A stretch of DNA of 64,000 nucleotides from an uncultured Blastocatellia bacterium (GTDB lineage Bacteria > Acidobacteriota > Blastocatellia > HR10). The stretch spans positions 119,272 to 183,271 of the forward strand of contig CALHAI010000005.1 of the NCBI GenBank assembly GCA_937934295.1, in the 5' to 3' direction. Below, in pieces: positions 55,823-64,000 of the stretch (its first letter is position 1; every line of letters starts with the position of its first letter). The position numbers and the translations under genes are program-made. A model generated the notes under the pieces. It saw only the letters and a list, made by a program, of their open reading frames with translations. It had not been told where the DNA came from and made no database searches.

Positions 55823-57127
55823 ATGCGCCTCGGAGATCGAAGCGAGGAGCCACGATCCGCTCGCCTGACAAGAGGCGCCGAGGCACCGATCCGCATCGCG
55901 CGCGTCCTCTCCCGACTGAACATCGGCGGACCTTCACGGCACGTCATCCTGCTGACGGCTGGACTCAACGACGAGTGCTTCCGTTCCACACTCATCGTCG
56001 GCCGCGAGAATGCCCGCGAAGGGCATCTCTTTGAGAAGGCGCGCGCGCACGGCGTGGAACCGATCCGGCTCGCCTCACTGCAGCGCGACGTGCACCCCCT
56101 GGATGACGGGCGAGCGTTCCTTCATCTCTTTCGCCTCTTCCGCCGACTGCGTCCGCAGATCGTTCACACCCACGCCTCGAAGGCCGGAGCCTTAGGCCGA
56201 CTCGCCGCCCGATGCGCTGGCGTCCCAATCGTCGTGCACACGTTTCATGGGCATACGTTCCATTCGTACTTCCATCCGCTTCTCTCCTCTCTCCTCCGCG
56301 CGCTCGAACGCACCCTGGCGCGCTGGACGACGCGCATCATCACGCTCAGTCCGACACTCAAAGAGGAATTGATTCGCTATCGGATCGCCCCGGCTGAGAA
56401 GATCGACGTCATCCCGCTCGGTTTGGAACTCGAGCACTTCGCCGAGAGCGATCGCTTTCGCGGCGAGCTCCGTCGCCAACTCGGTTTGGACGAAGCCATC
56501 CCCCTCGTCTGCTCGGTCGGTCGACTCGTGCCGGTGAAGAATCATATGCTGCTTCTTCAGGCCTTCGATCGAGTCCTGCAACACCGACCCGAGGCGCATC
56601 TCCTTCTGGTCGGAGACGGCGAACTGCGTCCTCGCCTTGAAGCGATGAGCGACCGCCCCCCTCTTCGCGGACATCTCTCGTTCCTCGGCTGGCGGGAGGA
56701 TCTGGAGCGCATCTACGCCGATGCGGATCTCGTCGTGAACAGCTCGCTCAACGAAGGAACGCCCGTCGCCGTGATCGAAGCCATGGCAGCGGCTCGGCCC
56801 GTCATCGCGACGGCGGTCGGGGGCGTGCCCGATCTCATTCGCCATGGGGAGACCGGATGGCTCGTCCCACCGATGGACCCGGAGGCGCTGGCCGCGCAGA
56901 TCCTCTATGTCCTCGACCATCCCGAGGAGGCCGCGCATGTCGCTCGGGCGGCACAAGCCTTCGCTCTCGCTCACTTCCGAGCTGACCAGCTCATCCAGCG
57001 TATGCGAGAACTGTATCTGACCCTCCTCGCATCGCGAGAAGGCGAGCACACGCCCCTTGTCCACGCATCCGATGACTCGCCCAGGACAAGTCGCACGATC
57101 TCACCGACTCGGCGAAGGCAATCCTGA
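55823..57127 (+). CDS. glycosyltransferase family 4 (GT-B fold)
   Basis: C-terminal E-x7-E-like motif region (NSSLNEGTPVAVIEAMAAARPVIAT), GGVPDLI. The start is approximate. Confidence 0.75.
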   Translation: MRLGDRSEEPRSARLTRGAEAPIRIARVLSRLNIGGPSRHVILLTAGLNDECFRSTLIVGRENAREGHLFEKARAHGVEPIRLASLQRDVHPLDDGRAFLHLFRLFRRLRPQIVHTHASKAGALGRLAARCAGVPIVVHTFHGHTFHSYFHPLLSSLLRALERTLARWTTRIITLSPTLKEELIRYRIAPAEKIDVIPLGLELEHFAESDRFRGELRRQLGLDEAIPLVCSVGRLVPVKNHMLLLQAFDRVLQHRPEAHLLLVGDGELRPRLEAMSDRPPLRGHLSFLGWREDLERIYADADLVVNSSLNEGTPVAVIEAMAAARPVIATAVGGVPDLIRHGETGWLVPPMDPEALAAQILYVLDHPEEAAHVARAAQAFALAHFRADQLIQRMRELYLTLLASREGEHTPLVHASDDSPRTSRTISPTRRRQS

Positions 57128-57973
57128 AGACTGGCCCTCGCATGAAGGACGACACCTTCCCCGAAGGAAATCTGTACTCGACAGAGAAGTGCTTTGTCGA
57201 GCGATCTCCAAGACTTGCCGCCTTTCTGGAAACAGCAGTATCTTCAGCTGTCAAGCCTTAACCGGCTCTGCCTCCCAAGCCGCGACCCCCACAGACAGCA
57301 GCACGCCAAGCCCCTCTCATCCCAACCCTCACGCATCTCTATCCCCCTCACCATCCTCTCCAACCTCCTGGCCTTCACCTCTTCGCCAAAAAGTTGCTTG
57401 AAGGCAGAAAAGAAACTCCTCCTCTCCACCCCCCCATAGCCAAGCCTCTCCTTCCACCCCAAGGGATCTTTTCCATATGCCCTGACCACTTCCTCCCTTT
57501 CCCCTCCACATCTTCCCCTCACCTTGGATCCCCACCTCTATCCCATTCCTCCCTCTCCCTAAGCCTGGAGCCCAGATCGGGGTCAGGCTGACTCGGGTAT
57601 CTTCAGGGAGAGGATGCTGTGGGGCAAAGAGGGAGATAAGCTGGCTCAAACCCCTTGCTAACCCCTCATGCTGCCGATACGGCCCCCCCTCCGGATCCCC
57701 CAAAATCACATCAGGCCGTGAGGATAGCGAAAGAGACGCCCATTCTTTTTCTCCCCTTGCCGGTCTGAGAGGCGTCCAACGGCTAAGAGGATTTCCCCCG
57801 TCGGACATGATGCTCGCTGTACTCGTTCCAGTTCCTTTCAGGCTTTCTCCCCTTTATTGTATCCCCTCGTCTTCATCCTGACCAAGACCAGGCCGCCGCA
57901 AGCCCCTGGCTTGAGCCACGGGGATAAGGCGGCCGGTTTTCAATAGGTGGCCGCGGGATGGTATACTTGGCTT

Positions 57974-58069
57974 ATGCCGCAGTACACAGCGGAATGCAAG
58001 TTGAACAACGTCTCAAAGAAGCCTCTTTCCCAGCGCATCCACGCCTGTGAGTGTGGCGTGGAGATGTAA
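57974..58069 (+). pseudogene. decayed C-terminal remnant of an IS200/IS605-family TnpB (zinc-finger region), flanked by in-frame stops
   Basis: MPQYTAECKLNNVSKKPLSQRIHACECGVEM* resembles the TnpB hallmark K.LS.R...C..CG preceding DRD.NAA.NI (here CxC with one residue lost; the downstream frame reads RNLYLAFLA). An in-frame stop lies 30 nt upstream and the remainder of TnpB is absent. Confidence 0.35.
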
Positions 58070-58440
58070 CGCAATCTCTACTTGGCGTTTCTGGCGTGGT
58101 GCGTGAAGGAGAATGGTTTGCTCCACGCAGATCTGGCGCGCGAGCGTTGGTCGGGTGCGGCAGCGGCTCCTGCGGGCGGCGTGGAGCCGTGCCACCCAAC
58201 CTGCGAGTGCGAGGGCGTTTCGCCCTTCCTCCTTCGGGGTGTATCCCCGGAGTCGGAGCGGGTCGCCCGCGCAAGAGGGGATAGCCAAAACCGAGGTCCG
58301 GGATGGTGTAGCGGAGGTGCCGACCTCTGGCGAGAGCCCGGAAGAGGTTGCGGTGGTTCCCCTCAGAACCCCCCGGCTCGAGCCGTGGGGAGGTTCAGAC
58401 CCCAGCTGCAGGTTATGCAATACAGCACAGAGGAGCACAT

Positions 58441-58468
58441 CCCCCGCGCGAGGTGAATCGCGCGGGGG
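58441..58468. terminator. very stable GC hairpin CCCCCGCGCGA-GGTGAA-TCGCGCGGGGG 12 nt beyond the stop of the minus-strand gene at 58480 (terminator and/or IS-end hairpin)
   Basis: 11-bp perfect stem, 6-nt loop. No clear U-tract on either strand. Confidence 0.4.
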
Positions 58469-58479
58469 ACGAGTGGGCC

Positions 58480-59301
58480 TCACGGATGCGGCGTGTGGCA
58501 TTGCACGCAGTTCATCTTGGCCTTCACATTGTCCATGCCCTTATCGCCGTGACACGTGAGACAGGTGGCGAGGGATTCCGGCGGAACATAAATGCCCCGG
58601 AACTGTCCATCGGCCCATTGATTCAGAAGCTCGACGGCGCGAGCTGCGACATCCCCCGTGAGCCGGCCGCATCGCTCCTTTCGCTCAAGCGATGAGGCGC
58701 GGAATCCCGAATGTTCGCACCACTTGGTCACTGAGATGTGGCATAAGGGAGACCCCGAAGCGTTCTGCGGCAGTGGCTGCGTATACTTCTGGACGAAGAA
58801 CTGTCCGGTTTGGGCGTACTGATTGCTGATGTCCGAGGGCAGGAGCGCTTGCGTGTACCACCCCTGCAATTCGTGGATGAGCTGATCGGCCGTCTGCTTA
58901 TCGCACACGAGATTGATGGCTGCACAGGCGCCTAGGAGTGCCCCGCACGACCCACCCCATCCGACGACGCCACCATGTCCCCAGATCATCATCTCGGGCG
59001 GGATGAGCGTGTACGGGTATCCAACGGCCTCGCGCAGCGCGACGACGATCGCGCGAAACGCGCCATAGGCGCACCCGTAGCCCTTCTCCCAATACCCTTG
59101 GTGACCGAGCTTGCGCACGTACTCGGGATCGAGCTTCTTATAGGGCCATGGCCAGGGGGGAAGCTCCACCTGGGCTTTCCCCTCGCGGCCGATGAGGCTC
59201 ATTCCGACTACACCCGCCGCAGCACAGGCGGCACATTGGGTCGTCAGCGTCAGAAATTCCTTCCGCGTAAGTTTCCGCTTCATAGCGCTTCCCTCCATCA
59301 T
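58480..59301 (-). CDS. C_GCAxxG_C_C family redox protein with C-terminal dihaem c-type cytochrome extension (two CxxCH), exported
   Basis: Signal with Tat-like RKEFL motif followed by AACAAAGVVG. The region ...GYGCAYGAF...SCGALLGACAAINLVCDKQ... matches the C-x-GCAxxG-x-C-x-C family pattern. C-terminal CLTCH and CVQCH. Confidence 0.7.
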   Translation of the reverse strand: MMEGSAMKRKLTRKEFLTLTTQCAACAAAGVVGMSLIGREGKAQVELPPWPWPYKKLDPEYVRKLGHQGYWEKGYGCAYGAFRAIVVALREAVGYPYTLIPPEMMIWGHGGVVGWGGSCGALLGACAAINLVCDKQTADQLIHELQGWYTQALLPSDISNQYAQTGQFFVQKYTQPLPQNASGSPLCHISVTKWCEHSGFRASSLERKERCGRLTGDVAARAVELLNQWADGQFRGIYVPPESLATCLTCHGDKGMDNVKAKMNCVQCHTPHP

Positions 59302-59493: not shown

Positions 59494-59631
59494 AGTTCGT
59501 GCCGAAGGACACTCCCATCGGCCAGGTGCGGGTGCACATCCCCCTGATGATCAACGACTTCCCGAGCATTGGGAGAAGAATGCGGTACGGCACTCCGATT
59601 GCATATATCTTCGGCTGAGGGAGGACATCCG

Positions 59632-60651
59632 ATGAAGATGAAGAGCGCCGACAAGTGGCTGAGAGAGCGACCCACAGAAGCGATGGCCTCTTCCCCCCTC
59701 TCGGTCGTCTCCGAAGGCGAACGCGCTTCTTCTCCGCTCAAATGCGTGTGGATGCTCGCTGGAGTCGTGGATTACAAGCTCTGTGATAGGGATTATGAAT
59801 GTGAGCAGTGCCCATTCGACCGCGCCCTTCGGGAATGGGCGGCGATTGGTGAACGAGAAGCTCGACGACCCCTTGCCGAACAAGCGAAGGAAGACCGCAC
59901 CAAGGATCATGGGCTCGTCGGATGCCCGCTCTGCAGAGAGCTTGAAGGCTGCTCTCAGGAGCCCATCTCGGCACGCGAGCGTGTCCGCGTCAAAAGGGGA
60001 TTCCGCATAGCGGAGGCGCTCTTCTACCATCCGGCGCATCTCTGGGTGCGTGTCGAGTGGCGAGGGCAGGTGCGCATCGGATTGGACGATTTCGGGCAGT
60101 GGCTTCTCGGGCGCATCTATCACGTGAGATTCCCCGATGTCGGCGCGCGGGTGATCGCTGGACATCCGTGCGGCGAGCTGGCATATCACGCGGGAGAGAT
60201 CGCCCTGCCCGCGCCGGTGACGGGGATGATCCACCAACTCAACGAGAAGCTCATGCGGTACCCCTCTCTTGTCAACCACGATCCCTATGGCGAAGGATGG
60301 ATGATGATCTTTCAACCGGAGCACCTGCATGAGGATTTGCAGCAGCTGCTGTACGGGGAGCAAGCGCTGGCATGGTATGCACGAGAGATCGCGAGGTTGC
60401 ATCAGGAGATCCACATCGCTTTGTGCGCCATGGGAACGTCCCCGGAAGCCCTCGCCGGCCGCACGCTCCAAGACGGGGGCGTTCCCGTTTCTCCCTCTTC
60501 TGAGTGCGAGCTCATGGCGTCCACCACGAGGAAGTCGCTCACCGAGCGGCTCAACCCCACGTGGTGGGCAGAGGTGATCGCGCAGTTTTTGCAACCGCAA
60601 GCCGGGCGCTCCAGAAGTGCGCCCGAGAGGGAAACTCGGCACAGGAGGTGA
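59632..60651 (+). CDS. GcvH-fold (glycine-cleavage H / lipoyl-like hybrid barrel) protein with N-terminal Cys-rich region; lipoyl-lysine absent
   Basis: RBS GAGGGAGG before the ATG at 59632. N-terminal CVWMLAGVVDYKLCDRDYECEQC and GCPLCRELEGC. The core HLWVRVEW...IGLDDFGQ...VRFPDVGARV...PVTGMIHQLNEKL...NHDPYGEGWMMIF matches the GcvH pattern, but the lysine position is H/A. The track start at 59569 is probably too early. Confidence 0.65.
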   Translation: MKMKSADKWLRERPTEAMASSPLSVVSEGERASSPLKCVWMLAGVVDYKLCDRDYECEQCPFDRALREWAAIGEREARRPLAEQAKEDRTKDHGLVGCPLCRELEGCSQEPISARERVRVKRGFRIAEALFYHPAHLWVRVEWRGQVRIGLDDFGQWLLGRIYHVRFPDVGARVIAGHPCGELAYHAGEIALPAPVTGMIHQLNEKLMRYPSLVNHDPYGEGWMMIFQPEHLHEDLQQLLYGEQALAWYAREIARLHQEIHIALCAMGTSPEALAGRTLQDGGVPVSPSSECELMASTTRKSLTERLNPTWWAEVIAQFLQPQAGRSRSAPERETRHRR

Positions 60652-60654
60652 GCT

Positions 60655-61359
60655 ATGGTCGCCTTCTTCGTCATTCTCACGATCATCGGGTTCATCCTCG
60701 TGGACTCCTTCGTCCAATGGGTCGAAGCCCGACAGGGGCTGACCTTGAGGCGAACGGCGCCGCGTCCCGAGCTTGTCCCGGCACTCGCGTTGGAAACCAT
60801 CTCCGTTCCCGCCGGCCTCTTCCTGGACGAGGGCCACACGTGGGTCCGCCTGGAGCCGAGCGGACGGACGCTGATCGGCATGGATGAGTTCGTGCGTCGA
60901 GCGATCGGTCGCGTGGACGCCGTGGAGTTGCCGAACGTCGGCTCCGTCGTTCGACGCGGCGATCCGCTGTTCACCGTCACACAAAATGGCCGACGGGCCG
61001 TTTTCCGCGCACCGCTCACTGGCGTCGTGAGCGCCGTCAACGAGAACCTCGCGCGCCTTCCTGAAACGGGACGGATGGACCCATATGAAGAAGGATGGGT
61101 GTGCGCACTGAAGCCGAAAGACCTGGCGGTGCATCTGCGTCATCTTTTCATCGCCGAGGAAGCACGGGCATGGCTTCGGTGGGAGACCGAACGCTTCAAG
61201 GAGTTCTTGACTCGGTGTCCGATGCCGCAGTCGGCTCTCGGACAGGTCTTGCAAGACGGCGGGCAGTGGGCCGAAGGCATTTTGGAGATGCTCGATGAAG
61301 CCGGCTGGGAGGAATTCGCGCGAACGTTCCTGCAAAGCCCGCGTTCTTCGGCAGAATAA
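60655..61359 (+). CDS. membrane-anchored GcvH-fold protein (second paralogue), lipoyl-lysine absent
   Basis: Starts 3 nt after the upstream stop. N-terminal TM helix MVAFFVILTIIGFILV. Core HTWVRLEP...IGMDEFV...VELPNVGSVV...PLTGVVSAVNENL...RMDPYEEGWVCAL. Confidence 0.65.
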   Translation: MVAFFVILTIIGFILVDSFVQWVEARQGLTLRRTAPRPELVPALALETISVPAGLFLDEGHTWVRLEPSGRTLIGMDEFVRRAIGRVDAVELPNVGSVVRRGDPLFTVTQNGRRAVFRAPLTGVVSAVNENLARLPETGRMDPYEEGWVCALKPKDLAVHLRHLFIAEEARAWLRWETERFKEFLTRCPMPQSALGQVLQDGGQWAEGILEMLDEAGWEEFARTFLQSPRSSAE

Positions 61360-61640
61360 GGAGGGCGGTCAAAGGCGCGGCTTCTGGCATTGGCGGCGGA
61401 GCGCGCGCCGACCGCTCCCTTTGTGTCCGAAATCAGTCACTGGCGGGCTCTGGTCCGTTGCACCTAGGAAGCGGCTCTCGATGGGGGATTTGCCCCACCT
61501 CAGCTTCTCGACAGCAGGAGCGATGCCATCGTGGTGCTGTAAGTGCTTGAAGTTAAGCCTTTCGGAAGCGGGCCTGCGAAAGGCACGAGGAGCTGGCCTG
61601 TGGCATGGAAATTGCATCCCTACGAAAAGGGGGGGCGCGT

Positions 61641-62447
61641 ATGGGCGACAAAAGGGGCCTTCTCTTCGACGCGACCTTGTGCATCGGATGCGGGGCGTGC
61701 TACGAGGCGTGCAAAGAGCGAAACCAGCTCCCACGGACGGCGGCACACTTTCTGGATGATCGGCTTTCGGATCAAACCTACACGGTTGTGAAGAGACGTG
61801 GAGGGCGATTCGTCCGCCAGCTCTGTATGCATTGCGAGGTTCCGACGTGTGTTTCCGTGTGTCCGGTCGGCGCGCTGGAGAAGACGGCCACAGGTCCGGT
61901 CATCTATCACGAGGCGCGCTGCATCGGATGCCGGTATTGCATGCTCGCGTGTCCCTTCGGCATCCCGAAGTACGAGTGGAGGAAGATCTTGCCTCGCGTC
62001 CGAAAGTGCGATCTCTGTGCGGATCGCCTCGCGGCCGGGCGCCCTCCGGCGTGCGCTGAGGTCTGCCCGACGGGAGCGACACGATTTGGCGATCGCCAGG
62101 CGCTGATCGAAGAAGCGCGCGCGCGAATCCGCACCCATCCTCAAAAGTATGTGCCGAGGATTTACGGCCTGGAGGAAGTCGGCGGTACATCGGTGCTGCT
62201 CCTCTCGGACATCCCCTTCGAGCGCCTCGGCTATCGGACCGATCTGCTGTCGGAGCCCTTGCCACTGTTGACGTGGCAGGTCTTGCAGAAGATCCCCAAT
62301 TTCGTCGCTGTCGGCAGCGTGTTGTTGGGAGGCATTTGGTGGATCACGAATCGGCGTCGAGAGGTCCAACTCCGAGAGCGCCAGCAGCGGGAGGTTCGCG
62401 AGCCCTCGGCGCCTGAATCCGCCGATCCATCGCATGAAGAGCCATGA
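61641..62447 (+). CDS. 4x[4Fe-4S] ferredoxin-type iron-sulfur subunit with C-terminal TM anchor (FdnH/HybA/PsrB-like), no N-terminal signal peptide
   Basis: AAGGGGGGG before the ATG at 61641. Four Cys clusters (CIGCGACYEAC, CMHCEVPTCVSVCP, CIGCRYCMLACP, CDLCADRL...CAEVCP). C-terminal hydrophobic helix FVAVGSVLLGGIWWI. Confidence 0.85.
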   Translation: MGDKRGLLFDATLCIGCGACYEACKERNQLPRTAAHFLDDRLSDQTYTVVKRRGGRFVRQLCMHCEVPTCVSVCPVGALEKTATGPVIYHEARCIGCRYCMLACPFGIPKYEWRKILPRVRKCDLCADRLAAGRPPACAEVCPTGATRFGDRQALIEEARARIRTHPQKYVPRIYGLEEVGGTSVLLLSDIPFERLGYRTDLLSEPLPLLTWQVLQKIPNFVAVGSVLLGGIWWITNRRREVQLRERQQREVREPSAPESADPSHEEP

Positions 62448-62487
62448 TCCCCCGCGCGTCGGGCGCGCGGGAGAGGTGGGGACGAAT

Positions 62488-64000
62488 ATGATGCGCTGGA
62501 GCTTTCGCCGACCGGGTTTTTGGCAACTCGTATTTGCGCTCATCCTGGGCGTTGGCCTCTATAGCACGGTCGTCCGGTTCACCGGCGGCCTGGGAGCGAG
62601 CACGGCCTTGAGCGATGCCTTCCCCTGGGGATTGTGGATCGGCTTCGATGTGCTCTGCGGAGTAGCCCTGGCAGCCGGGGGATTCACCCTCAGCGCCGTC
62701 GTCTACATCTTCAATGTCGAGCGGTTTCGACCGATCATTCGTCCGACGATCCTCACGGCGTTCCTCGGCTACGCGCTCGTCATCGTGGCCTTGCTCTTCG
62801 ACCTGGGACGCCCCTATCGCATCTGGCACCCATTGGTGATGTGGAACCCGCACTCGGTGATGTTCGAAGTGGCGTGGTGTGTCATGCTCTACACGACGGT
62901 GCTCGCGCTGGAATTCAGCCCGATGGTATTCGAACGCTTGAGGCTCGAGCGGCCGCTGCGAATCCTTCACGCGCTGACGGTGCCGCTGGTCATCCTCGGC
63001 GTCATCCTCTCGACGCTTCATCAGTCCTCGCTCGGATCGCTCTACTTGATTGTCCCGGAGAAACTGCATCCGCTCTGGTATTCGCCGCTTTTGCCCATCT
63101 TCTTCTTCATCTCGGCGATCGCGCTCGGTTGCGCGATGCCCATCTTCGAGTCATTTCTGAGCTATCGGGCATTCCGAAAACGGCTGGAGATTGAGCTGCT
63201 CGCCGATTTGGGGAAGGTGATCGTCGTCACATTGGCCGTATATCTGGTCCTGAAAATCCAGGACTTGGCCGGACGGGGCGTGCTCTCCCGCATTGTCGAA
63301 CCAACATACGAGGGGCGAATGTTCCTGGCCGAGATGCTGCTCGGCGTGATCGGTCCGATCCTGTTGCTCAGCCTCCGTCGCATTCGGACGGATCACTTCG
63401 GCCTCTTCGTCTCCGCCGTTCTGGTCGTTCTCGGTTTCATTATGAATCGGCTCAATGTGAGCATCACGGGGATGGAAGCGTCTTCCGGCGTGTCCTACTT
63501 CCCGAGCTGGACGGAGCTTTCGGTGACGCTGATGATCGTCGCCCTGGGGTTCGCGCTCTTTGGCGCGGCAGCGAAATATCTCCCCGTCTTCCCGGAGAAG
63601 GAGCGTCTTCCGGCACCCACCTTGGTGGAGCCTCCAGCGGTGGCTGTCCTGCGGCGACCGTGGATTGGCACGACGCCCCTGGTGTTGATCCTCGGCGGGC
63701 TCTTCTTCATCGGCGCCATGGGATCGGCCTATAGCGGCCTTCAGCATCGCGAACGAGCACTCGCCACCGCTCCGGCCAGCGAGGAGAGCGAACCCGAGAT
63801 CGCCGACGGCTTAGAGCGCTTTGAAGTCCCTCCGGACGTCACATTCCCTCAGGGAGAGGCCAGTCCCGGACCGGTTACATTCCGACACGCCTCGCACCTC
63901 AATTGGGAGAGGCCCAATTGCACGATCTGTCATCACGAGCCGTTCCGCATGTTGAAGGCATTCGGGAGCGTGACCGCATCGCCCGCCCGCGATTTGCATG
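62488..64000 (+). CDS. NrfD/PsrC/HybB-family polysulfide-reductase-type membrane subunit with extra C-terminal TM helices and a fused cytochrome c7/c3-like haem domain (partial; continues beyond window)
   Basis: Not in the ORF track because there is no stop in the window. Read in frame from ATG 62488: MMRWSFRRPGFWQLVFALILGVGLYSTVVRFTGGLGAS...NRLNVSITGMEAS... (8+ TM helices), then ...FEVPPDVTFPQGEASPGPVTFRHASHLNWERPNCTICHHEPF.... The last stretch matches the c7 pattern V.F.H..H......C..CH. Confidence 0.8.
   Translation, partial: MMRWSFRRPGFWQLVFALILGVGLYSTVVRFTGGLGASTALSDAFPWGLWIGFDVLCGVALAAGGFTLSAVVYIFNVERFRPIIRPTILTAFLGYALVIVALLFDLGRPYRIWHPLVMWNPHSVMFEVAWCVMLYTTVLALEFSPMVFERLRLERPLRILHALTVPLVILGVILSTLHQSSLGSLYLIVPEKLHPLWYSPLLPIFFFISAIALGCAMPIFESFLSYRAFRKRLEIELLADLGKVIVVTLAVYLVLKIQDLAGRGVLSRIVEPTYEGRMFLAEMLLGVIGPILLLSLRRIRTDHFGLFVSAVLVVLGFIMNRLNVSITGMEASSGVSYFPSWTELSVTLMIVALGFALFGAAAKYLPVFPEKERLPAPTLVEPPAVAVLRRPWIGTTPLVLILGGLFFIGAMGSAYSGLQHRERALATAPASEESEPEIADGLERFEVPPDVTFPQGEASPGPVTFRHASHLNWERPNCTICHHEPFRMLKAFGSVTASPARDLH

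What the first reader, a model, noticed from the sequence alone, without database searches (positions are those of the whole stretch)
57128..58479. 1.35-kb non-coding, compositionally atypical (AT-richer, CT-skewed) block containing a decayed TnpB C-terminal remnant and a strong terminal hairpin
After the glycosyltransferase stop there is no credible ORF for ~1.35 kb. The first ~500 nt are pyrimidine-rich low-complexity sequence with GC far below the window average. At 57974-58069 a short frame encodes ...KKPLSQRIHACECGVEM*, resembling the K.LS.R...C..CG zinc-finger hallmark of IS200/IS605 TnpB just before the RuvC-III DRD.NAA.NI motif (degenerate here), with an in-frame stop 30 nt upstream. 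At 58441-58468 there is an 11-bp perfect GC hairpin. Together this looks like the scar of an IS200/IS605-type (TnpB/omegaRNA) element or other insertion, and it immediately precedes the unusual redox module. The block could also host a non-coding RNA.
Basis: partly seen in the sequence, partly recalled or inferred. Interest (0 to 1): 0.5.

Follow-up and report, generated by a model that had tools for sequence, protein, structure and literature searches.

The report
Gutted IS200/IS605 transposon keeping its guide RNA
The gap holds a 516-bp internally deleted IS200/IS605 (tnpA+tnpB) transposon whose two ends and TnpB guide-RNA scaffold are still intact, next to 710 bases of unexplained C-rich DNA, all inside an insertion specific to this lineage; this is an ordinary, already described kind of transposon relic.

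Summary
Window 57128-58479 has no credible gene.

- **Lineage-specific insertion.** Four related Blastocatellia lineages have only 107-220 nt between the same two genes. About 1.26 kb (57169 to about 58427) is therefore specific to this lineage.
- **Transposon relic.** 57883-58398 (516 bp) is an internal-deletion derivative of an IS200/IS605 element. It keeps the left-end hairpin, the first 12 tnpA codons, and the last 123 codons of tnpB (E 7e-44 to an intact relative; one stop, one frameshift). It ends at the exact right end, ...GGTTCAG.
- **Guide RNA.** Its 3' 200 nt form a covariation-supported omegaRNA scaffold. All 39 consensus pairs are kept, and a covariance model scores it 157 bits.
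- **Trans factors.** No tnpA or tnpB is intact in the 64 kb.
- **The GC hairpin.** The hairpin at 58440-58469 is not part of the element. All relatives that lack the insertion have it, about 10 nt after the stop of the convergent C_GCAxxG_C_C gene. It is a native terminator-like hairpin.
- **The C-rich DNA.** 57169-57878 has the most extreme GC skew in the window. No homologue, repeat or fold signal was found, and it stays unexplained.
- **HMM test.** Pfam and NCBIfam do not hit the remnant. It lies almost wholly in a C-terminal extension outside the TnpB models.

Verdict: a PATE-like non-autonomous derivative, a new member of a known kind, of low interest.

The parts
57128..57168 (.). Native intergenic DNA just after the glycosyltransferase stop. 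Homology with related lineages ends at ...CCTTCCCCGAAGG.
   Evidence: Alignments to L045 and L048.
57169..57878 (+). Orphan C-rich DNA of 710 nt, the left part of the lineage-specific insertion. GC is 0.564 and GC skew reaches -0.63. No coding, repeat or RNA-structure signal was found, and its origin is unknown.
   Evidence: Absent from lineages B-E. Composition. Its 159-aa ORF has no homologue. No tandem repeats. Fold z is -1.7 and -1.2 on the two strands. No Rfam hit of note. No exact or similar DNA in viral, metagenome, plasmid or phage collections.
57879..57882 (+). TGAC, the inferred target or transposon-adjacent motif (TAM) immediately 5' of the left end.
   Evidence: All 8 left-end-bearing copies share TGACC(A/G), preceded by unrelated sequence. 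Reading it as the TAM is an inference.
57883..58398 (+). The whole non-autonomous IS200/IS605 derivative, 516 bp. It equals the 2039-bp intact element minus about 1523 bp of internal sequence.
   Evidence: Left-end and right-end alignments to L001-L009.
57891..57934 (+). Compound left-end hairpin: an outer GGCCGCC/GGCGGCC stem and an inner CCCCTGGC/GCCACGGGG stem, followed by GGTTTT. The inner palindrome 57904-57923 resembles the right-end palindrome.
   Evidence: I4; 3 matches against 0.27 expected. Fold is -35.9 kcal/mol, z -4.5. Conserved in 8 loci.
57959..57967 (+). TGgTATACT, an extended -10-like box 6 nt before the tnpA ATG. It is conserved as TGGTATAAT or TGGTATGAT in relatives.
   Evidence: Read from the alignments. 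Promoter function is inferred.
57974..58009 (+). The first 12 codons of tnpA (MPQYTAECKLNN). The deletion junction lies at 58009/58010.
   Evidence: DNA alignment to the tnpA starts of L001 and L005. P0004 begins MPRYTVEYKSHNN. The L001 tnpA matches Y1_Tnp and NF033573.
58010..58379 (+). The last 123 codons of tnpB (aa 450-572 of L001): the second half of the zinc finger, the RuvC-III motif and the C-terminal extension. It is broken by TAA at 58067-58069, a D-to-N change in QRD, and a +1 nt insertion within 58160-58166.
   Evidence: tblastn E 7e-44, 77-82% identity in two frames. Homologues carry PF07282.
58199..58398 (+). omegaRNA-like scaffold. Helices are 58199-58204/58258-58263, the long stem 58275-58364, and the 3' hairpin 58370-58390, which is also the right-end palindrome. 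It ends at ...GGTTCAG.
   Evidence: RNAalifold gives 39 pairs, 16 of them compensatory. 95.7% of cells are paired against 44-57% in slid controls. The window keeps 39/39 pairs. The single-sequence fold agrees. The covariance model scores it 157.4 bits.
58399..58427 (+). Right part of the lineage-specific insertion. Its first 16-20 nt (ACCCCAGCTGCAGGTTATGC) would be the omegaRNA guide.
   Evidence: All loci diverge immediately after TTCAG. Not homologous to lineages B-E. No metagenome hit.
58440..58469 (-). Native GC-rich hairpin (12-bp perfect stem, 6-nt loop), 10 nt after the stop of the minus-strand C_GCAxxG_C_C gene. It is terminator-like and not part of the IS.
   Evidence: The stem is conserved with variable loops in L045, L048, L055 and L057, which lack the insertion. 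It was not flagged as a canonical terminator because it has no U-run.

Best explanation
**What the block is.** Window 57128-58479 is a short native intergenic region between two convergent genes. These are a GT4 glycosyltransferase (+) and a C_GCAxxG_C_C redox protein (-), with a terminator-like hairpin. An uncultured Blastocatellia lineage acquired about 1.26 kb of foreign DNA in this region.

**The transposon-derived part.** 516 bp of it (57883-58398, + strand) is a PATE-like, non-autonomous internal-deletion derivative of an IS200/IS605 element that originally carried tnpA (a Y1 transposase) and tnpB. A single deletion of about 1.5 kb joined tnpA codon 12 to tnpB codon about 450. It removed all catalytic capacity but left every cis-acting part:
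- the TGAC target motif;
- the left-end hairpin and the tnpA promoter-like -10 box;
- the right-end hairpin and the exact right terminus;
- the roughly 200-nt omegaRNA scaffold that overlaps the tnpB 3' end.

**Likely mechanism (inferred from the established biology of the family, not shown here).** The element can no longer move or defend itself on its own. If an intact copy elsewhere in the genome supplies TnpA, the element could be excised and re-inserted as single-stranded DNA through its hairpins. If TnpB is supplied in trans, its omegaRNA, with guide ACCCCAGCTGCAGGTT... read from the flank, could direct cleavage of the empty TGAC-plus-flank site and so favour its retention. If no such copy exists, it is an inert relic.

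**The rest of the block.** The C-rich 710 nt to its left is unrelated orphan DNA. It is probably the remainder of the foreign segment into which the IS inserted, or with which it arrived. The GC hairpin is the host's own terminator-like structure.
For: **Insertion status.**
- Lineages B (L038-L047), C (L048-L051), D (L055) and E (L057) share the flanking genes. Lineages B and C were measured at 87-94% nt identity to the window.
- These lineages have only 107-220 nt where the window has 1352 nt.

**IS identity.**
- A repaired 143-aa translation finds 14 homologues at 51-73% identity, several carrying PF07282.
- 33 genomic loci were found, including intact elements.
- L001 encodes a TnpA (Y1_Tnp 151.6 bits; NF033573 154.7 bits) and a TnpB (PF07282 39.6 bits; NF040570 106 bits against a cutoff of 100).
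- tblastn of that TnpB places aa 450-499 at 58010-58159 and aa 502-572 at 58167-58379, E 7e-44.

**Ends.**
- Every copy ends at GGTTCAG and diverges right after it. In the window this is 58398.
- Eight left ends begin with TGACC after unrelated DNA.
- The left-end and right-end palindromes are similar: 3 matches against 0.27 expected.

**omegaRNA.**
- 39 consensus pairs, 16 with compensatory changes. 95.7% of cells are paired against 44-57% in slid controls, and 0 of 500 shuffles reach the observed values.
- The window keeps 39 of 39 pairs, and the covariance model gives 157.4 bits.

**Recurrence of deletion derivatives.** L004 (793 bp) and L009 (931 bp) keep both ends, and L014 has a different tnpA-omegaRNA junction.

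Against: - No intact tnpA or tnpB occurs anywhere in the 64-kb window, and there is no second copy of the element or its omegaRNA. Trans-mobilisation and trans-guiding are therefore untested.
- I could not search the rest of the 590-kb source contig or genome.
- The remnant itself gets no Pfam or NCBIfam hit.
- TGAC as the TAM is inferred from 8 boundaries, not from an empty site.
- No expression data exist.
- The intact RNA pairs may simply reflect a recent deletion rather than selection.
- The origin of the 710-nt and 29-nt orphan DNA flanking the element is unexplained.
Confidence: 0.9

Rival explanations
1. The IS-derived piece is a dead scar. It is neither mobilisable nor a source of functional omegaRNA, and its intact-looking ends only reflect a recent deletion.
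For: - Only a single copy is seen in 64 kb, with no tnpA or tnpB nearby.
- The coding remnant has already picked up a stop, a frameshift and a catalytic D-to-N change.
- The higher conservation of the omegaRNA part (87.5% against 78% identity to L001) is a family-wide property, not specific to this copy.
Against: - All 39 consensus RNA pairs are kept, and the invariant left-end and right-end positions are intact.
- Logan assemblies of two samples both break at window 58103, inside the remnant. This suggests that other, similar copies exist in the same communities.
- This rival differs from the best explanation only in present-day activity, not in identity.
Confidence: 0.5
2. The whole 1.26-kb insertion (57169-58427) is one composite mobile or recombined unit. 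The C-rich 710 nt would be part of a larger unknown element, or a novel non-coding RNA gene, with the IS derivative only a passenger.
For: - Both flanks of the IS (57169-57878 and 58399-58427) are foreign to the locus in four related lineages. The IS therefore did not insert directly into native intergenic DNA.
- The segment has the most extreme strand composition in the window.
- It begins with a 10-bp hairpin at 57177-57201.
Against: - No terminal inverted or direct repeats or target duplication bound the block (and reading of the junctions).
- No homologue was found in any searched collection, and there is no Rfam family.
- Fold energies are not distinguishable from shuffles (z -1.7 and -1.2).
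- There is no second copy in the window.
Confidence: 0.08
3. The GC hairpin at 58440-58469 is the transposon's terminal (right-end) hairpin.
For: It is a very stable perfect 12-bp stem lying close to the remnant.
Against: - The family's right end is at 58398, where 30 or more copies end.
- The hairpin is present at the same distance from the C_GCAxxG_C_C stop in lineages B, C, D and E, which have no IS. Its stems are conserved, its loops vary, and one lineage has a compensatory extra C-G pair.
Confidence: 0.02

Closest known systems
PATE-like non-autonomous IS200/IS605 derivatives that retain an omegaRNA (described for Geobacillus stearothermophilus by Meers et al., PMC10055086)
   Same: It has no intact protein gene and keeps the left-end and right-end hairpins of the parent family. 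It also keeps the omegaRNA scaffold at the right end, which would need TnpB supplied in trans.
   Different: It still contains recognisable tnpA (12 codons) and tnpB (123 codons) fragments that show exactly how it arose. Only one copy is visible, so amplification as a MITE-like family is not shown. The host is an acidobacterium (Blastocatellia), whereas the closest intact relatives are in thermophilic Bacillota and candidate phyla.
Autonomous IS605-group elements (tnpA plus tnpB), e.g. IS608 of Helicobacter pylori and ISDra2 of Deinococcus radiodurans
   Same: The parent architecture matches. It has subterminal hairpins instead of inverted repeats and inserts 3' of a short conserved motif (here TGAC). 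It carries a Y1 transposase followed by tnpB, and the omegaRNA overlaps the tnpB 3' end and stops at the right end (here ...TTCAG).
   Different: The parent clade's TnpB (about 510-525 aa) has a C-terminal extension of about 100 aa beyond the NF040570 model, coincident with the omegaRNA. No solved structure is detectable by sequence. The window copy lacks about 75% of the element.
IS200 left-end stem-loop acting as a transcription terminator (from my own knowledge of the IS200 literature; not checked here)
   Same: The conserved left-end hairpin is followed by GGTTTT, upstream of the tnpA promoter-like box.
   Different: Terminator activity was not tested. In this family the same hairpin is also the presumed TnpA recognition site.

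Membership tests
IS200/IS605 family (IS605 group, tnpA + tnpB) | Subterminal imperfect palindromes at both ends and no terminal inverted repeats | tested here: met
   The left-end hairpin 57891-57934 and the right-end hairpin 58370-58390 share the motif CCCYGGCTYGAGCCRYGGGG. Both are conserved in related loci and both are stable folds.
IS200/IS605 family (IS605 group, tnpA + tnpB) | Y1 (HUH) transposase TnpA encoded in the element | tested here: not met
   Only 12 codons remain (57974-58009), and tblastn with the L001 TnpA finds nothing else in the window. The intact relative L001 has Y1_Tnp at 151.6 bits and NF033573 at 154.7 bits. The window copy is therefore a derivative, not an autonomous member.
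IS200/IS605 family (IS605 group, tnpA + tnpB) | TnpB (RuvC plus zinc ribbon) recognisable by family HMMs | tested here: not met
   The repaired remnant has no Pfam or NCBIfam hit. Homology is shown indirectly instead: E 7e-44 to the L001 TnpB, which passes NF040570 (106 bits, cutoff 100) and PF07282. The remnant covers aa 450-572, mostly outside the HMM span.
IS200/IS605 family (IS605 group, tnpA + tnpB) | Insertion 3' of a conserved short target motif, with no target-site duplication | tested here: inconclusive
   TGAC precedes all 8 left ends and unrelated DNA lies upstream of it. No empty site was found to confirm the exact boundary.
TnpB omegaRNA (right-end RNA) | Conserved structured RNA overlapping the tnpB 3' end, ending at the transposon right end and followed by a flank-derived guide | tested here: met
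   There are 39 pairs, 16 of them compensatory. 95.7% of cells are paired against at most 57% in slid controls. The window keeps 39/39 pairs and the covariance model gives 157.4 bits. Sequence conservation stops exactly at 58398. Transcription and TnpB binding cannot be tested here, and there is no Rfam family.
PATE / MITE-like non-autonomous derivative | No intact ORF but both transposon ends retained | tested here: met
PATE / MITE-like non-autonomous derivative | Several copies of the same short derivative in one genome (evidence of trans-mobilisation) | tested here: inconclusive
   There is no second copy in the 64-kb window. Logan contigs from two samples both break at window 58103, which hints at related copies in the community.
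Intrinsic (rho-independent) terminator, for the hairpin 58440-58469 | GC-rich stem-loop followed by a U-run, just downstream of a stop codon | tested here: inconclusive
   The stem is very stable (-37 kcal/mol, z -5.7) and lies 10 nt after the minus-strand stop. It is conserved in 4 other lineages. The tail (UGUGCUCCUCUGUGCUGUAUU) is only U-rich, and the scanner did not call it.

The most novel reading that the evidence does not exclude
The most novel reading not excluded has two alternative forms.

1. The omegaRNA of this gutted element is kept by selection and is used in trans by a TnpB encoded elsewhere. It might even be co-opted by the host as a guide or regulatory RNA at this locus. Support is limited to this: all 39 pairs are intact while the ORF has decayed.
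2. The adjacent 710-nt, extremely C-skewed orphan segment is a new kind of non-coding gene or mobile DNA, rather than junk.
Probability: 0.07. Interest if true: 0.55.

Novelty: new member of a known kind. Interest (0 to 1): 0.2.

Why it matters
**Annotation.** The result explains a 1.35-kb 'empty' gap. It removes a suspected link between the gap and the neighbouring redox gene cluster. It also reassigns the conspicuous hairpin to the host genes.

**Method.** It shows that HMM scans can miss a genuine TnpB remnant when only a clade-specific C-terminal extension survives. Comparison with intact elements and with insertion-free relatives settles such cases.

**Biology.** It adds an acidobacterial example to a thermophile-associated IS200/IS605 clade. 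That clade repeatedly produces internal-deletion derivatives and solo right-end/omegaRNA fragments. This fits the published idea that omegaRNA-bearing non-autonomous elements depend on TnpA and TnpB supplied in trans. It does not open a new question.

Tried and rejected
- **Rfam.** The scan at gathering thresholds over the whole window found nothing. The permissive scan of 56900-58700 gave only two chance-level hits (a trypanosomatid snoRNA and a flavivirus frameshift element).
- **tRNA/tmRNA.** None in the window.
- **HMM scans of the remnant.** Pfam and NCBIfam on the repaired translations gave no TnpB hit.
- **C-rich segment as a gene.** The 159-aa ORF matches only itself, and the other frames are full of stops.
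- **C-rich segment as a tandem repeat.** Only a 2.4-copy 9-mer was found.
- **C-rich segment as a structured RNA.** z is -1.7 and -1.2 on the two strands.
- **C-rich segment as a copy of something else.** No blastn hit in the window or in the 53 loci fetched by then. No exact 24-29-mers in viral or JGI metagenome contigs. No plasmid or phage similarity.
- **Other carriers of the right flank / empty site.** A 25-mer from the right flank (iii) had no metagenome hit.
- **A second relic in 57128-57878.** tblastn with TnpA and TnpB found nothing there.
- **Group I or group II intron (IStron-like) reading of the left segment.** Rejected: no Rfam signal, and the segment lies outside the left end.
- **Exact-protein look-up of the 273-aa minus-strand ORF.** It failed because of a different start call.
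- **Solved-structure sequence search with the parent TnpB.** No hit.
Full report
**1. What is in the sequence.**
- Between the stop of a GT4 glycosyltransferase (55823-57127, +; Pfam Glycos_transf_1 and Glyco_transf_4) and the stop of a convergent C_GCAxxG_C_C gene (58480-59301, -) there are 1352 nt with no credible ORF.
- The only long ORF is 57329-57808(-), 159 aa. It is low-complexity and has no homologue other than itself.
- The whole window averages GC 0.632 (sd 0.029 for 300-nt windows). Segment 57169-57876 has GC 0.564.
- The 300-nt window starting at 57251 has GC skew -0.63 and 69% pyrimidines. Both are the most extreme values in the window.
- So the strand skew is real and striking, while the drop in GC is modest.
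- Rfam finds nothing at gathering thresholds and only two chance-level hits at permissive thresholds. There are no tRNAs.

**2. The TnpB clue extends much further than reported.**
- The frame that reads ...KKPLSQRIHACECGVEM* continues past the TAA (58067-58069) as RNLYLAFLAWCVKENGLLHADLARERWSG.
- After a +1 nt insertion in 58160-58166 it continues in the next frame as LLRAAWSRATQPAS...VAVVPLRTPRL.
- A repaired 143-aa translation gets no Pfam or NCBIfam TnpB hit.
- It does find 14 proteins at 51-73% identity, several carrying PF07282, the TnpB/Cas12f zinc-ribbon domain. All 14 are themselves fragments (98-234 aa).
- One of them (P0004) is a TnpA N-terminus fused to a TnpB C-terminus, and two others are TnpB N- and C-termini fused.

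**3. Intact relatives and delimitation.**
- A genome scan returned 33 loci, mostly in thermophile MAGs. These include Ca. Fervidifonticultor, Bacillota, Symbiobacterium, Thermaerobacter, Caldatribacterium, Moorellaceae, Ammonifex, Desulfofundulus and Pyrinomonas.
- L001 holds a complete element. Its tnpA scores Y1_Tnp 151.6 bits and NF033573 154.7 bits. Its tnpB scores PF07282 39.6 bits and NF040570 106 bits against a cutoff of 100.
- tblastn of the L001 TnpB places aa 450-499 at 58010-58159 and aa 502-572 at 58167-58379, E 7e-44. It finds no other TnpA or TnpB in the window.
- The NF040570 match ends near residue 413 of the 510-aa protein. The remnant therefore lies almost entirely in a C-terminal extension outside the family models. 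This explains the negative HMM scans.
- At the DNA level, more than 30 copies share the last 119 nt and all end at ...GGGGAGGTTCAG, after which they diverge. In the window this right end is 58398.
- Eight copies share the left end. Each begins TGACC(A/G) after unrelated sequence, and in the window TGAC is 57879-57882.
- By analogy with IS608 and ISDra2, TGAC is the inferred target motif or TAM. The element proper is then 57883-58398, 516 bp, against 2039 bp for L001.
- The 12 codons MPQYTAECKLNN (57974-58009) align with the start of tnpA, so one deletion of about 1523 bp joined tnpA codon 12 to tnpB codon about 450.
- The left-end hairpin (57891-57934; -35.9 kcal/mol, z -4.5) and the right-end hairpin (58370-58390) share a palindromic motif, found 3 times against 0.27 expected.
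- L004 (793 bp) and L009 (931 bp) are independent deletion derivatives that keep both ends. L014 has yet another tnpA-to-omegaRNA junction.

**4. The non-coding RNA.**
- An alignment of the last 240 nt of 25 copies gives a consensus structure of 39 pairs, 16 with compensatory changes.
- 95.7% of cells are paired, against 44-57% when partners are slid by 1-3 columns. The covariation score is 0.243 against at most 0.068, and no shuffle out of 500 reaches the observed values.
- The window copy forms all 39 pairs, as do the intact elements L001-L003.
- Folding 58270-58418 alone reproduces the long stem plus the 3' hairpin.
- A covariance model built from 21 copies scores the window copy at 157.4 bits and finds no other copy in the window.
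- This anatomy is that of a TnpB omegaRNA: the scaffold overlaps the tnpB 3' end and stops at the right end, and the guide is read from the flank (here ACCCCAGCTGCAGGTT..., unique in the window).
- The omegaRNA part is more conserved than the coding-only part (87.5% against 78% identity to L001).

**5. The block is a lineage-specific insertion, and the hairpin is native.**
- The window is identical to ENA ERZ6863514 contig c_000000052173 (590 kb). A near-identical strain (L034) and two Logan assemblies carry the same left part.
- PtsI places the host among uncultured Blastocatellia; the nearest named hit is 86% identical.
- Four related lineages were examined: B (L038-L047), C (L048-L051), D (L055) and E (L057). 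The flanking genes of B and C are 87-94% identical to the window at nucleotide level; D and E were reached through PtsI homologues 86% identical in protein sequence.
- These lineages have only 119, 114, 220 and 107 nt between the glycosyltransferase (a remnant of it in lineage C) and the C_GCAxxG_C_C gene.
- Homology with the window stops at 57168 and resumes at about 58428. About 1.26 kb is therefore inserted, replacing roughly 27-50 nt.
- The perfect hairpin 58440-58469 is present in all four lineages at the same place. Stems are conserved, loops differ, and lineage D has one extra C-G pair.
- It is therefore the host's terminator-like hairpin for the convergent genes, 42 nt outside the IS. 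It lacks a canonical U-run.

**6. What remains unexplained.**
- Segment 57169-57878 and the 29 nt at 58399-58427 flank the IS derivative and are foreign to the locus.
- They have no homologue, repeat, RNA family, significant fold or similar DNA in any collection I could search.
- No terminal repeats or target duplication bound the 1.26-kb block.
- Most likely the IS inserted into, or arrived with, a piece of foreign DNA that is now non-functional. This is an inference.

**7. Mechanism and comparison.**
- *Shown:* identity, boundaries, the deletion architecture, RNA structure conservation, insertion status and the native nature of the hairpin.
- *Inferred from the known biology of IS200/IS605, TnpB and omegaRNA (PMC10055086, PMC8612924):* the element could be mobilised by a TnpA and its omegaRNA loaded by a TnpB supplied in trans.
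- Meers et al. explicitly describe PATEs that encode omegaRNAs and need TnpB in trans.
- No trans source is visible in the 64 kb. The breaks of two Logan assemblies at window 58103 only hint at other copies in the community.
- I therefore file it as a PATE-like non-autonomous derivative of a known family. It is a new member of a known kind, with low general interest (0.2).

Noticed in passing
window 58858 (L034 position 9036): In the near-identical strain L034 (ENA ERZ6864471) a single C-to-T change on the + strand turns W148 of the C_GCAxxG_C_C redox protein into a stop (TGG to TAG on the coding strand). The gene next to the block is therefore a pseudogene or truncated in that strain.
   Followed up: partly
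L048-L051, about 2176-2700 (corresponds to window 55823-57127): In lineage C the glycosyltransferase is internally deleted: only nt 1-197 and 992-1305 remain. The PtsI to C_GCAxxG interval is thus a hot spot for rearrangement in these Blastocatellia.
   Followed up: partly
L001 2840-4372, and window 58080-58379: This TnpB clade has a C-terminal extension of about 100 aa beyond the NF040570 model. It coincides with the omegaRNA scaffold. Its apparent protein conservation (e.g. GESxGEAAVVPLRTPRL) may be driven largely by the RNA. The family stop codon TAG sits in the loop of the right-end hairpin and is lost (GAG) in the window copy.
   Followed up: partly
window 57959-57976; L001, L004, L005 and L017 left ends: A conserved extended -10-like box (TGGTATAAT, TGGTATGAT or TGgTATACT) lies only about 6-10 nt before the tnpA start codon. 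This suggests a leaderless tnpA mRNA. The left-end hairpin is followed by GGTTTT, so it looks like a terminator.
   Followed up: no
L022, L027-L033 (e.g. L029 and L030, uncultured Pyrinomonas): Many loci retain only the last 70-110 nt of the element, that is the right end and 3' omegaRNA, at 83-93% nucleotide identity. These may be solo right-end fragments, but most lie at the very start of the fetched locus and could be cut off there. They occur across distant thermophile genomes, including another Blastocatellia member.
   Followed up: no
L036 and L037 (Logan ERR9287632 and ERR9287617), contig ends at window 58103: Two independent short-read assemblies stop at exactly the same base inside the tnpB remnant. 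This suggests that a related repeat or variant is present in those metagenomes.
   Followed up: no
window 57177-57201, and 57337-57361 with 57607-57631: A 10-bp hairpin sits 8 nt inside the left junction of the orphan DNA. There is also a 25-nt, 84%-complementary long-range inverted repeat with 245 nt between its arms. Neither gives a significant overall fold signal.
   Followed up: partly
window 59569-63100: Downstream are two tandem GCV_H-like genes, a 4Fe-4S (Fer4_11) protein and an NrfD/cytochrome c7 fusion. All five lineages conserve them with the C_GCAxxG_C_C gene, and in lineages B and C a sigma54-dependent two-component system follows.
   Followed up: no
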